Assembly (NCBI GenBank): GCA_000004695.1
Contig: CM000151.3
Coordinates: 1,696,001 to 1,760,000, forward strand
Origin: Dictyostelium discoideum
Taxonomy: Eukaryota
Length of the DNA stretch: 64,000 bases
Direction of reading: 5' to 3'
In this document: one piece after another, positions 29,983-33,506 of the stretch
Layout: each line of letters starts with the position of its first letter
How positions within the stretch are numbered: position 1 is the stretch's first letter
Notes under the pieces: generated by a model
Told to the model about the DNA's origin: nothing
Database searches by the model: none
The model's input: the letters and a program-made list of their open reading frames with translations, nothing else
Program-made: the position numbers and the translations under genes

Positions 29983-31488
29983 ATGTTTATTATCCTAAAA
30001 TTTTTAATATCGTTTTTCCTAATTTGTAATTTTTTTAATTATAATGATCATTTTGCATCTGGTCAAACATTACCTCCTGGATTTTGTCCTTCGCCATTAA
30101 TATATAGAAATTCAACTAATAGACAAAATGATATTGAAAATGGTTATCTGTTTATTGGTCAAACAAATTGTACTTCACCATGTCCAAGGTTTGTTTTTAA
30201 TTTTTAATAATTTTTTAAAATAATAATAATCATTTAAATTTACTTTTTTTTTTTTTTTTTTTTTTTACATTTAATTAATTTTTTTTTTTTTACTAAATTT
30301 AATTATTTATTTACTATATATTAATTTATTTTTTAATTTATTAATTTTTTAATTTATTTAATTTTTAAAAGTTTAATATTTTCAGAAAATGAATGGCATA
30401 GAGTTTATAATATGTCATTAATAGCAGGAACAATTTCAATGTTTGCATTGATATTTTTAATTATTACATATAGTCCATTAGTAAATAAATATAATGGGTA
30501 TACAAGACATACTGTTGGAATTTTATTTTTATTTTGTGGTATATTCTTAACGGTTACTACGGATGGTAGACAACTTTGGGATATTGATTTAGGATTTGAA
30601 AAATATTGTCCGGAACCTGGAAGATTTGCAAGACAATCAGATACAAAATGCTTAGTTACTGCAATTTTCTTTCAATATGGCTGTGTTACTTCAATATTAT
30701 GGTGGGCTGCAATATCGGTTGATTTATGGATGACAATAAGAAAAGTGAAAATTTCAAAACTCCAATTCATAACTTATGCTGTGATTTTGAATATAATTAC
30801 ATTAATTTTAACATTTGCTCCAATTGCATCAAAACAATATGGATATGGTGAAGCGGCAATTGGCTGTTGGTTAATGGATTTGAAATATCAAGTTGGTTAT
30901 TTTTGGGCACCTGTTGGATTTTGTTTATGTGTTGGTTGTGTTAGTATTGTATTGATTATTAGAGAGATTTACAAAGTTTCGGATGCCATTAAAAAGAAAT
31001 TATTAGCAAAACATTTGAAACCATTAATGTTAATCATTTTAATGTTATCAGAATTTATTTATATGTTTATTTTCTATTCATATACAACTTCACGTAGAGG
31101 TCATTATCATGATGTCGTTGAAAAGTATATCCGATGTTTATTTATTAACGCTTCAAATCCATCAATTTGTGAGGTTGATGTATCAATTTCATCACCCGCT
31201 CATTTTTTCTTTCATTTTTGTATGAGATTAATGGGTATTGAGGGTTTGATTTTCTTTGGTTTTACAAGACAAACTAAAAGAATATGGTTAAGATCATTTT
31301 GGCTTAATAATAGTTTCATTAAGAAATTAATACCATCACTTTCCTCTATATCCAGTGATGAGAAAACTTCAAACTCAAGTCATAGAACTACTAGGGGTTG
31401 TAGGGAAACTGAATTTGGTGAATCGATCGAACAATCAAATGATCCAGAACATTTTATCGAGTTATCAGGAGTAGATTCAAAAAATTAA
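29983..31488 (+). CDS. Frizzled/Smoothened-like 7TM receptor lacking a CRD (Dicty fsc/fsl-type). Two exons: join(29983..30188, 30372..31488).
   Basis: The TM3 region [31 protein letters not shown] matches the Frizzled TM3 pattern (C..G.AS.IWWVILS..W). There are 7 predicted TMs. The N-terminal signal peptide is followed by a short Cys motif [14 protein letters not shown]...NCTSPCP. The acceptor is AG at 30370/71, not the nearer ttcag at 30385. That choice is required by phase and supported by paralog conservation (PCPS|[15 protein letters not shown]). Confidence 0.75.
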
Positions 31489-31820
31489 TTTTTTTATTTT
31501 TTTTTTTTGAAAACCCAAATAAAAAAAAAAAAAAATAAAAATAAAAAAAAAATTTGAAAATATCTGAAAAATTTTCAAAAAAAAAAAAAAATCAAAATTA
31601 TAAACAAATTTTTTTAAAAAACAAAACGGCACAACCTTTTGATCAATTGTAGCAAAAATATATTTAGATTTTTTTTTTTTTTTTTTTTTGAATTTTATTT
31701 ATTTCAAATTAATTTAAAAATAAAAATTTTTTTTTTTTTTTTTTGTGTTAACACTAGCCCCAATTTCCTTTTAAATTTTTAAAAGGTTTTTTTTTTGAAC
31801 TGAACAAAAATTTAGTGAAT

Positions 31821-31857
<37 letters not shown>

Positions 31858-31971
31858 AAAAAAAATAAAAACAAAAATATGTGATTGTAAAAAAAAAATT
31901 ATTGAAAAAAAAAAAAAAAACAATTTGATTTGTAAACTGATCAAAATTTTTTTATATAATTAATTTTGACC

Positions 31972-33501
31972 ATGATATCTCATATTAAAAAATTTATAAA
32001 TTTATATACAATTGTTTTCCTTTTATATATTCTATATAGTAATGAAAATTTTTTTGTAAAAGGGCAAAAATTACCACCTGGGTTTTGTCCTTCTCCATTA
32101 ATATATAGAAATACAACAGATAGACAAAGTGATATAGATATTGGCTTTCAATTTTTAGGTGAAACAAATTGTGTTCAACCATGTCCATCGTAAGTTTAAA
32201 ATTAATATAAAAATAAATTTTTTTTTAAAAAAAAAAATATAAATAAATAAAAAAAAAAAAAAAAAGCAATCAATTTCTTTTTAAATTAATAGATTTAAAA
32301 TATAATTAAAAATTAGTTTTTTTTTTAAAATTTTATTCTAATTAATTTTAATTTTTTTTTGTTATTGTTATTTTTTTTTTTTATAAAAATAGTTTAATTT
32401 TAACAGAAAATGAATGGAATAAAGTTTTTAATATGTCATTAGTTGCGGGAACAATTTCAATGTTTGCATTAATATTTTTAATTATTACATATAGTCCATT
32501 AGTTAATAATATTAAAGATTATACAAGACATACTGTTGGAATTTTATTTTTATTTTCTGGAATTTTAATTGCAATGACAACAGATGGTAGACAACTTTGG
32601 GATATTGATTTAGGATTTAAAAAATATTGTCCAGAACCAGGTAGATTTGCAAGACAATCAGATTCAAAATGTTTAGTTACAGCAATTTTCTTTCAATTTG
32701 GTTGTGTAACTGCATTGTTATGGTGGGCTGCAATTTCAGTTGATTTATGGATAACAATTAAAAAAATTAAAATTTCAAAGAAATTATTTATAATTTATAC
32801 AATTGCAGTGAATATAGTTACCATAGTTTTAACATTTGGACCAGTTGGTTCTAAACAGTATGGTTACATTGATGCTGCAATTGGTTGTTGGTTAATGGAT
32901 TTGAAATATCAAGTTGGTTATTTCTGGGCACCAGTTGGATTTTGTTTATGTGTTGGTTGTGTTAGTATAGTTTTAATTCTTAAAGAGATTTACAATGTTT
33001 CAGATGCCGTTAAAAAGAAATTATTAGCAAAACATTTGAAACCATTAATGTTAATCATTTTAATGTTGACAGAATTTATTTATATGTTTATTTTCTATTC
33101 ATATACAACTTCAAAAAAAAATCATTATCATGATATTATTGAAGAGTATGTTGTATGTTTATTTGTTCACGCGGCAAATCCGTCCGTTTGTAAAATTGGT
33201 TCAACAATATCACCATCAGCTCACTTCTTTTTCCATTTATGTATTAGATTAATGGGTTTAGAAGTTTTAATTTTCTATGGATTTACAAGACAAACAAGAA
33301 AAATTTGGATGAGATCATTTTGGTTTAATAATAGTTTTATTAAAAGATTCTTACCATCTATTTCCTCATCAAATGACTCAAAATCATCAAATAATAAAAC
33401 AAGCGGTCGTGTAACTGGTGGTTTTGGTGAATCATCTGAGCAATCAAATGAACCTGAACAATCAATTGAATTATCAGGTATTGATGATTCTAAACATGAT
33501 C

Positions 33502-33506
<5 letters not shown>
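31972..33506 (+). CDS. Second frizzled-like 7TM receptor paralog, in tandem. Two exons: join(31972..32189, 32393..33506).
   Basis: About 80% identical to the upstream copy over the TM core. Donor GTAAGT at 32190, acceptor AG at 32391/92. The junction PCPS|[15 protein letters not shown] parallels the upstream copy. Confidence 0.75.

What the first reader, a model, noticed from the sequence alone, without database searches (positions are those of the whole stretch)
29983..33506. Tandem pair of CRD-less frizzled-like 7TM receptors with an N-terminal Cys motif and a conserved non-obvious splice acceptor
Two about 80%-identical genes in tandem encode signal peptide + [14 protein letters not shown](S/T)...NC(T/V)(S/Q)PCP + a Frizzled-type 7TM core (TM3 [14 protein letters not shown]). 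In both copies the nearest AG before the large exon (ttcag|AAAATG at 30385 and 32405) gives the wrong phase. Only the acceptor 14 nt further upstream (30370/71; 32391/92) joins exon 1 in frame. Both copies then encode the same junction peptide PCPS|LI(F/L)(S/T)ENEW. This is a case where paralog comparison fixes the gene model. The short Cys-containing N-terminal module could be a minimal ligand-binding element replacing the Frizzled CRD.
Basis: partly seen in the sequence, partly recalled or inferred. Interest (0 to 1): 0.5.

Follow-up and report, generated by a model that had tools for sequence, protein, structure and literature searches.

The report
Known Dictyostelium receptor genes fscD and fscE

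Summary
Two two-exon genes lie at 29983-31488 and 31972-33506 (+). Spliced at the upstream AG (30370/71; 32391/92), they give 440 and 443 aa proteins that are letter-for-letter UniProt Q75JP9 (FscD) and Q559M5 (FscE) of D. discoideum AX4 chromosome 2. The gene model is therefore already public.

Comparative data confirm the acceptor:
- An Acytostelium homologue encodes the junction peptide with no intron.
- The D. firmibasis fscE orthologue lacks the downstream AG altogether.
- Both genes are under purifying selection (dN/dS 0.11-0.13).

The Frizzled assignment needs care. Neither protein scores against Pfam PF01534 on its own. However, a family profile hits only Smoothened/Frizzled chains in the PDB, and a confident AlphaFold model (pLDDT 86) has Smoothened/Frizzled as its top 34 structural matches.

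The 'CRD replacement' idea is not supported. The same Cys motif sits between the CRD and TM1 in most of the 67 aligned amoebozoan relatives, where about 50 carry a long Cys-rich N-terminus. It also aligns to the FZD6/FZD3/SMO linker, and its cysteines match the SMO disulfide cysteines. It is the conserved class F linker domain.

A side observation is gene-conversion tracts between the two copies. Verdict: already known, low interest.

The parts
29983..30188 (+). fscD exon 1. Encodes the signal-peptide-like hydrophobic N-terminus and most of the linker module (LPPGFC35PSPLIYRN43ST...NC63TSPC67P, plus the first 2 nt of the S69 codon).
   Evidence: The spliced product is identical to Q75JP9/XP_645308.1.
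30189..30371 (+). fscD intron: 183 nt, phase 2, 4.4% GC, GT...AG. It contains no AG other than the acceptor at 30370-71.
   Evidence: The same donor and acceptor context is found in the D. firmibasis orthologue.
30372..31488 (+). fscD exon 2. Encodes the end of the linker (SLIFSENEW), seven TM helices, helix 8 with QTKRIW, the Ser/Asn-rich tail, and the stop codon.
30384..30385 (+). Downstream 'proximal' AG in fscD. It is not a splice site but part of codons TCA GAA (S73 E74). Using it gives a TGA after two codons.
31972..32189 (+). fscE exon 1: signal-peptide-like N-terminus and linker module.
   Evidence: The spliced product is identical to Q559M5/XP_645309.1.
32190..32392 (+). fscE intron: 203 nt, phase 2, 5.9% GC. 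The acceptor AG is at 32391-92.
32393..33506 (+). fscE exon 2: end of the linker (SLILTENEW), the 7TM core, QTRKIW, the tail, and the stop codon.
32405..32406 (+). Downstream 'proximal' AG in fscE, part of codons ACA GAA. It is absent from the D. firmibasis orthologue, which has ACA AAA.
30882..31089 (+). Approximate gene-conversion tract in fscD, covering TM5-ICL3-TM6. The partner tract in fscE lies at about 32903-33110.
   Evidence: There are 18 consecutive informative sites that group paralogues within species. Fisher p = 7.7e-11 against the rest of the gene.

Best explanation

Gene structure: each gene has one phase-2 intron inside the codon that follows the PCP motif. Each is spliced at the first usable AG, which is the annotated 'distal' acceptor.

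Protein architecture: each product is a class F-type seven-helix receptor. It consists of a probable signal peptide, a roughly 45-residue linker domain, the 7TM bundle with a long TM6/ECL3, helix 8, and a low-complexity tail.

The N-terminal Cys motif is the class F linker domain that remained when the CRD was lost. By alignment with Smoothened, I infer four disulfides: C35-C63 within the linker, C67-C148 stapling the linker to ECL1, C162-C234 (TM3-ECL2) and C324-C335 (ECL3). In this reading the module is a structural lid over the 7TM cavity.

Inferred mechanism: with no CRD, any ligand must be sensed at the linker/ECL/7TM cavity, as in CRD-deleted Smoothened. The output is probably through heterotrimeric G proteins rather than a Wnt/Dishevelled route.

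Published genetics place FscE in growth-phase control, in the response to the secreted proliferation inhibitors CfaD and AprA.
For: Shown:
- Identity: both spliced proteins match FscD and FscE exactly, on an 8.48-Mb contig of D. discoideum AX4.
- Splice model, junction peptide: it is encoded without an intron in Acytostelium (L002 2329-2508...DCALPCPAPLFSKREW...).
- Splice model, orthologues: the D. firmibasis orthologues, in the same tandem order, keep the distal AG. The fscE orthologue has no proximal AG. The 14-nt segment shows a synonymous TTT>TTC change.
- Splice model, intron position: D. purpureum has a phase-2 intron one codon away.
- Constraint: interspecies dN/dS is 0.13 for fscD and 0.11 for fscE. 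The linker (0.10-0.13) is as constrained as the 7TM core.
- Class F, sequence: a 10-sequence family profile hits 22 PDB sequences, all SMO or FZD (best E = 7e-9), aligned from the linker to helix 8.
- Class F, Pfam: 4 of 10 close and 31 of 67 wider relatives hit PF01534 on their own.
- Class F, fold: the AlphaFold2 model built with 67 sequences has pLDDT 86.3 and pTM 0.83, with the linker at pLDDT 92-97. Its top 34 Foldseek PDB hits are all SMO or FZD (E = 1.8e-10, rmsd 3.6 A over about 365 columns, TM up to 0.79).
- Linker identity.
- Cysteines: C63, C67, C148, C162, C234, C324 and C335 align to SMO C213, C217, C295, C314, C390, C490 and C507. They are invariant or at least 90% conserved across 67 relatives. 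The SMO C217-C295 and C314-C390 disulfides are cited from PMC10710022.
- Function: the fscE knockout proliferates more slowly, reaches a lower maximal density, has more binucleate cells, is insensitive to rCfaD, and moves towards rAprA (PMC5821085).
- Literature: the FscA-J clade is described in PMC10445921.
Against: - Neither protein reaches any score against PF01534 on its own. The only hit is a sub-threshold 7tm_2 match at E = 0.022. Single-sequence phmmer against the PDB gives FZD6 only at E = 3.8.
- The KTxxxW motif is QTKRIW/QTRKIW.
- Disulfide pairings are inferred from alignment, not measured. The C35-to-SMO C193 equivalence was not aligned by HMMER and rests on conservation only.
- No transcript data could be consulted here.
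- The ligand and the G-protein coupling are unknown, and FscD has no published phenotype.
Confidence: 0.9

Rival explanations
1. One reading: the short Cys module is a new, minimal ligand-binding element that replaces the Frizzled CRD.
For: - It is the only sizeable extracellular N-terminal element.
- It is strongly conserved, with dN/dS of 0.10-0.13 and invariant Cys and Pro residues.
- It carries a conserved N-x-T sequon (N43/T45).
- Lying over the 7TM cavity, it could still contact a ligand.
Against: - The module co-exists with a CRD in most relatives, always between the CRD and TM1.
- Its profile aligns to the FZD6/FZD3/SMO pre-TM1 linker (E = 4.6e-5 to 0.04).
- Its cysteines are the class F linker cysteines.
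- It therefore predates the CRD loss and did not replace anything.
Confidence: 0.07
2. The proximal AG is used, either constitutively (making the genes pseudogenes or producers of roughly 70-aa secreted peptides) or as a regulated unproductive splice that lowers receptor levels.
For: - ttcag|A and aacag|A look like good acceptors.
- They lie only 14 nt from the real one in both D. discoideum copies.
- Occasional NAGNAG-like slippage cannot be excluded without RNA data.
Against: - Exon 2 is under strong purifying selection in frame with the distal acceptor.
- The proximal AG is missing in the D. firmibasis fscE orthologue.
- The junction peptide is contiguous coding sequence in Acytostelium.
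- The fscE knockout has phenotypes.
- The distal AG is the first AG met after the intron's T-rich tract.
Confidence: 0.03
3. The proteins are not class F relatives but divergent members of another Dictyostelium 7TM family (cAR/Crl-like or secretin/adhesion-like), and the Frizzled label is an annotation artefact.
For: - PF01534 gives no hit for either protein.
- The only Pfam signal is 7tm_2 at E = 0.022.
- 13 of 67 relatives also hit Dicty_CAR and 18 of 67 hit 7tm_2.
Against: - The family profile retrieves only SMO/FZD from the PDB.
- The top 34 fold matches are SMO/FZD, ahead of any class A, B or adhesion receptor.
- Seven class F-specific extracellular cysteines align directly and an eighth is conserved, and the linker is present.
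- CRD-bearing (Fz domain) homologues join the same alignment.
Confidence: 0.03

Closest known systems
[quoted passage not shown]
   Same: Identical sequences, residue for residue, including the splice junction. The clade is described in PMC10445921, and the fscE knockout in PMC5821085.
   Different: Nothing. These are the same genes.
Human Smoothened linker domain plus 7TM (CRD-deleted construct, PDB 4JKV; also 6O3C, 6XBJ)
   Same: - Same fold: rmsd 3.6-3.7 A over about 365 columns, E about 1e-10 to 1e-9.
- The alignment runs from the linker Cys pair to helix 8.
- Seven extracellular cysteines are aligned.
- There is a long TM6/ECL3 extension.
   Different: - Only 15-17% identity.
- The natural protein lacks a CRD altogether.
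- The position of SMO W535 (7.55) is F/Y.
- The KATxxxW/KTxxxW motif is QTxxxW.
- There is no Hedgehog pathway context.
Human FZD6/FZD3 pre-TM1 linker (PDB 8JHB, 8QW4)
   Same: The motif GY.F.G...C..PCP..(F/Y)F...E immediately before TM1 is shared. Example: Fsc[25 protein letters not shown] against FZD6 [24 protein letters not shown].
   Different: - FZDs carry a Wnt-binding CRD upstream and a Dishevelled-binding KTxxxW motif.
- From general knowledge, not tested here: Dictyostelium has no Wnt or Dishevelled.
CRD-bearing amoebozoan Fsl receptors (e.g. Acytostelium subglobosum P0021, Polysphondylium violaceum 'FZ domain-containing protein' P0028, Balamuthia 'Wnt-activated receptor' P0102)
   Same: Same linker motif and 7TM core, at 17-37% identity.
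   Different: They have 150-300 extra N-terminal residues with about 10 Cys (Pfam Fz). FscD and FscE have only 34 and 38 residues before the first linker Cys.

Membership tests
Class F (Frizzled/Smoothened) 7TM receptors | The protein's own sequence scores above threshold against Pfam PF01534 (Frizzled/Smoothened membrane region). | tested here: not met
   no PF01534 hit at E <= 1 for FscD or FscE. The close paralogue/orthologue proteins P0017 and P0018 just pass (25.0 and 22.7 bits against a 22.3 cut-off), and P0021 reaches 41.7 bits.
Class F (Frizzled/Smoothened) 7TM receptors | Profile-level sequence homology of the whole 7TM region to class F and to no other GPCR class. | tested here: met
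   all 22 PDB hits of the family profile are SMO or FZD3/6/7, with E down to 7e-9 and profile positions 52/61 to 376/402 aligned; 31 of 67 relatives hit PF01534.
Class F (Frizzled/Smoothened) 7TM receptors | Class F fold: 7TM with a linker lid, an ECL2 hairpin, and an extended TM6/ECL3. | tested here: met
   pLDDT 86.3, pTM 0.83; top 34 Foldseek PDB hits are all SMO/FZD, best E = 1.8e-10.
Class F (Frizzled/Smoothened) 7TM receptors | Linker domain and extracellular loops with the conserved disulfide-forming cysteines. | tested here: met
   - C35, C63, C162 and C324 are invariant. C67, C148, C234 and C335 are at least 90% conserved in 67 sequences.
- seven of these align to SMO C213/217/295/314/390/490/507.
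- The bonds themselves were not measured.
Class F (Frizzled/Smoothened) 7TM receptors | N-terminal cysteine-rich domain (Fz, PF01392). | tested here: not met
   there is no Fz hit. Only 34 (FscD) and 38 (FscE) residues, mostly the signal sequence, precede the first linker Cys.
Class F (Frizzled/Smoothened) 7TM receptors | KTxxxW motif after TM7 (Dishevelled PDZ-binding). | tested here: not met
   the motif is RQTKRIW in FscD and RQTRKIW in FscE. T and W are kept, and K is replaced by Q. PMC10445921 states that only FslJ and FslK keep KTxxxW.
Class F (Frizzled/Smoothened) 7TM receptors | Activation by Wnt or Hedgehog-pathway inputs, and coupling to Dishevelled or G proteins. | not testable with these tools
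   Needs biochemistry. Only knockout phenotypes of fscE are available.
Dictyostelium Fsc clade (Frizzled/smoothened-like sans CRD) | Sequence identity with the named members, and a short CRD-less N-terminus. | tested here: met
   (exact matches to Q75JP9 and Q559M5).
Secretin/adhesion-like (7tm_2) or cAR-like (Dicty_CAR) receptors | Score above the Pfam gathering threshold for PF00002 or PF05462. | tested here: not met
   7tm_2 scores 14.5 bits against a cut-off of 20.6, for FscD only. There is no Dicty_CAR hit.

The most novel reading that the evidence does not exclude
Fsc receptors may be natural equivalents of CRD-deleted Smoothened. The disulfide-stapled linker/ECL lid would be the only extracellular sensor. 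The receptors would then be either constitutively active or gated by a small or lipidic ligand in the 7TM cavity.

Recurrent gene conversion between the tandem copies may keep the TM5-ICL3-TM6 transducer-coupling face identical while the extracellular face diverges. That would give two receptors with different inputs and one shared output.
Probability: 0.15. Interest if true: 0.45.

Novelty: already known. Interest (0 to 1): 0.13.

Why it matters
It matters little beyond quality control. Both genes, their exact exon structure and their family name are already in RefSeq, UniProt and dictyBase, and one of them has a published knockout.

The useful outcomes are three:
- The 'Frizzled' label, which fails a single-sequence Pfam test, is secured at profile and structure level.
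- The N-terminal Cys motif should be read as the class F linker domain rather than as a CRD substitute. This tells anyone studying Fsc ligands to look at the linker/ECL/7TM cavity.

Tried and rejected
- Single-sequence Pfam scan of FscD/FscE and single-sequence phmmer against the PDB. Both were too weak to decide anything (FZD6 at E = 3.8), so I replaced them with profile searches.
- First AlphaFold run with a 10-sequence alignment. It gave pLDDT 61.8 with the linker below 50, which is unusable for the N-terminal module. I repeated it with 67 sequences.
- Look-up of the locus of the D. discoideum paralogue P0020. It is not on record, so intron positions in other D. discoideum fsc genes were not compared.
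- Fixing the gene model from reading frame alone. 58 and 75 GT..AG pairs keep an open frame, so the frame is not sufficient and homology was needed.
- Using dS to date the duplication. Paralogue dS (0.46-0.52) is no larger than orthologue dS (0.53-0.62) even though the duplication predates the species split. This is explained by gene conversion plus extreme A/T codon bias, so no date was attempted.
- tRNA scan of the window. It found none.
- Aligning C35 to SMO C193. HMMER local alignments start downstream of it, so this equivalence remains an inference.
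Full report
**What is there**

The window is very A+T-rich, with 14-34% GC per 2 kb. Reading 29500-34200 and splicing in silico gives two genes on the + strand.

- Gene 1: exon 29983-30188, intron 30189-30371, exon 30372-31488.
- Gene 2: exon 31972-32189, intron 32190-32392, exon 32393-33506.

Both introns are GT...AG, phase 2 and 4-6% GC. 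With the upstream acceptor the products are 440 and 443 aa with a single terminal stop. With the AG 14 nt further downstream both run into TGA after two codons.

The proteins are 71% identical and the coding DNA is 82% identical. No third copy is in the window.

**Identity**

An exact-sequence look-up finds both spliced proteins in public databases.

- Gene 1 is Frizzled/smoothened-like sans CRD protein D (Q75JP9, XP_645308.1).
- Gene 2 is protein E (Q559M5, XP_645309.1).
- Both are from D. discoideum AX4, on an 8.48-Mb contig (chromosome 2).
- Near-identical entries exist from other D. discoideum, D. citrinum and D. dimigraforme assemblies.

The clade FscA-J, its lack of a CRD, its restriction to group-4 dictyostelids and its developmental regulation are described in PMC10445921, which credits Prabhu & Eichinger 2006.

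An fscE knockout is published (PMC5821085). It shows:
- slower proliferation and a lower maximal density;
- more binucleate cells;
- insensitivity to recombinant CfaD;
- movement towards AprA instead of away from it.

**Is the distal acceptor right?**

No transcript data can be queried here, but four independent lines agree.

1. In the Acytostelium subglobosum homologue P0021 (37% identical), the peptide ...DCALPCPAPLFSKREWDN... is encoded by uninterrupted DNA (L002 2329-2508). The junction peptide is therefore real coding sequence.
2. D. firmibasis keeps the same tandem pair in the same neighbourhood (L003: tRNA-synt_2 gene, fscD orthologue 6001-7433, fscE orthologue 7883-9346, then a minus-strand gene).
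   - Both orthologues keep the distal AG.
   - The fscE orthologue reads ACA AAA AAT GAA TGG, so the 'proximal AG' does not exist there.
   - The fscD orthologue shows a synonymous TTT>TTC change within the 14-nt segment.
3. The best D. purpureum homologue has a 66-nt phase-2 intron one codon upstream, inside the last Pro codon of PCP.
4. Between D. discoideum and D. firmibasis, dN/dS is 0.13 for fscD and 0.11 for fscE, in the frame set by the distal acceptor.

The acceptor is also mechanistically unremarkable. In fscD it is the only AG in the intron. In fscE it is the first AG after a 76-nt AG-free, T-rich stretch. The downstream 'cag' is formed by the codons for (S/T)-E.

Frame alone would not have settled the model, because 58 and 75 GT..AG combinations keep an open frame.

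**Is it Frizzled-type?**

- Neither protein gives any PF01534 hit at E <= 1. The only signal is a sub-threshold 7tm_2 match.
- Single-sequence phmmer against the PDB finds FZD6 only at E = 3.8.

PMC10445921 notes the same difficulty for many dictyostelid family-5 receptors. At profile level the picture is clear.

- A 10-sequence family alignment (A1) hits 22 distinct PDB sequences. All are Smoothened or Frizzled-3/6/7, with E down to 7e-9, aligned from the linker to helix 8.
- 4 of 10 close relatives and 31 of 67 wider relatives hit PF01534 on their own.
- An exhaustive profile search finds 647 representatives at E <= 0.001.
- With a 67-sequence alignment (A3), AlphaFold2 gives pLDDT 86.3 and pTM 0.83 with seven TM helices, an ECL2 hairpin, an extended TM6 and helix 8.
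- The top 34 Foldseek matches of that model in the PDB are all SMO or FZD. The best is E = 1.8e-10, with rmsd 3.6 A over about 365 columns and TM-score up to 0.79 on the target.
- The earlier shallow model gave the same ranking.

I therefore accept class F membership at superfamily level. I note that two textbook features are not met.
- There is no CRD.
- KTxxxW is QTKRIW/QTRKIW.

**What the N-terminal Cys motif is**

In alignment A3, about 50 of 67 relatives carry 130-800 residues (typically about 185) with about 10 cysteines upstream of the position of FscD C35. 27 of them score as Pfam Fz domains.

All of them keep the motif C-x-x-P-L...G-Y...C-x-x-P-C-P-x-P-x-F...W between that domain and TM1.

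In P0021 the order is:
- Fz domain at 35-143;
- the motif, starting at residue 195 and running to about 240;
- PF01534 from residue 231.

Named examples include a Polysphondylium 'FZ domain-containing protein', Balamuthia 'Wnt-activated receptor' and FscF.

A profile of the N-terminal 83 residues alone retrieves the pre-TM1 segment of FZD6 (E = 4.6e-5), FZD3 (5.8e-4) and SMO (0.04). Example: [24 protein letters not shown] against [20 protein letters not shown].

In the full-length alignment to human SMO, FscD C63, C67, C148, C162, C234, C324 and C335 fall on SMO C213, C217, C295, C314, C390, C490 and C507 (numbering checked by counting in the printed alignment). C217-C295 and C314-C390 are disulfides in SMO (PMC10710022). 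The C193-C213 and C490-C507 pairs I recall from the SMO crystal-structure literature and did not check here.

These cysteines are invariant or at least 90% conserved across the 67 relatives. The module is modelled at pLDDT 92-97 and evolves as slowly as the 7TM core.

The motif is therefore the class F linker domain, retained when the CRD was lost. It is not a replacement for the CRD. It may still line a ligand entrance, as the linker and ECLs do in Smoothened, but that is inference.

**How it most likely works**

Shown:
- a secreted-pathway 7TM protein of class F fold;
- no CRD;
- a conserved linker and extracellular loops with eight conserved extracellular cysteines;
- both copies under purifying selection;
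- FscE needed for normal growth-phase behaviour and for CfaD/AprA responses.

Inferred:
- The four disulfides listed above.
- Signal-peptide cleavage near ASG|Q and VKG|Q.
- Ligand sensing at the linker/ECL/7TM cavity.
- Coupling to heterotrimeric G proteins rather than Dishevelled. The K of KTxxxW is lost. From general knowledge, not tested here, Dictyostelium lacks Wnt and Dishevelled.
- Possibly raised basal activity. CRD-deleted SMO has higher basal signalling (PMC10710022), so Fsc proteins may behave likewise. This is speculative.

**Side observation: gene conversion**

On a codon alignment of the four genes (D. discoideum and D. firmibasis fscD and fscE), orthologues are closer than paralogues over most of the length. 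Two tracts are exceptions.

- Alignment nt 732-939 (TM5-ICL3-TM6; window about 30882-31089 and 32903-33110). Here 18 consecutive informative sites group the two copies within each species. The D. firmibasis copies are 100% identical over nt 721-900.
- Alignment nt 424-507 (the ECL1 region). This tract is shorter.

Fisher p = 7.7e-11 for the main tract against the rest of the gene. This is the signature of gene conversion between the tandem copies after the species split. It explains why paralogue dS is no larger than orthologue dS.

**Verdict**

The Frizzled-type assignment is correct at profile and fold level, although the proposed Pfam test fails. The 'CRD replacement' idea is not supported. 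Novelty: already known. Interest: low.

Noticed in passing
window ~30882-31089 (fscD) and ~32903-33110 (fscE); shorter tract ~30574-30657 / ~32595-32678; L003 6001-9346: There are gene-conversion tracts between the tandem paralogues. In TM5-ICL3-TM6, 18 consecutive informative sites group the copies within each species rather than by orthology. The D. firmibasis copies are 100% identical over 180 nt. Fisher p = 7.7e-11.
   Followed up: partly
window 24493-25821 (+) and 26504-28012 (+): Two class II aspartyl-type tRNA synthetase ORFs (Pfam tRNA-synt_2, E = 7e-56 and 9e-74) lie in tandem upstream of fscD. The first lacks a detectable anticodon-binding OB domain in this ORF and carries a poly-Asn insert. 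D. firmibasis shows only one such gene in the syntenic 6 kb.
   Followed up: partly
window 33711-35786 (-): A 691-aa ORF lies immediately downstream of fscE on the opposite strand. It has a ricin-type beta-trefoil lectin domain (PF00652, E = 2e-8, residues 99-197) and about 490 C-terminal residues with no Pfam match. A 711-aa syntenic gene exists in D. firmibasis.
   Followed up: no
L001 3195-3260 versus window 30189-30371: The intron of the best D. purpureum homologue is phase 2 but sits one codon upstream, splitting the Pro codon of PCP instead of the following Ser codon. It is only 66 nt long. This is an apparent 3-nt intron shift.
   Followed up: no
window 33507-33560 and 31790-31860: Long poly(A)/poly(T) runs directly follow both stop codons and fill the 483-nt intergenic spacer. 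This is typical Dictyostelium intergenic sequence, and no function was examined.
   Followed up: no
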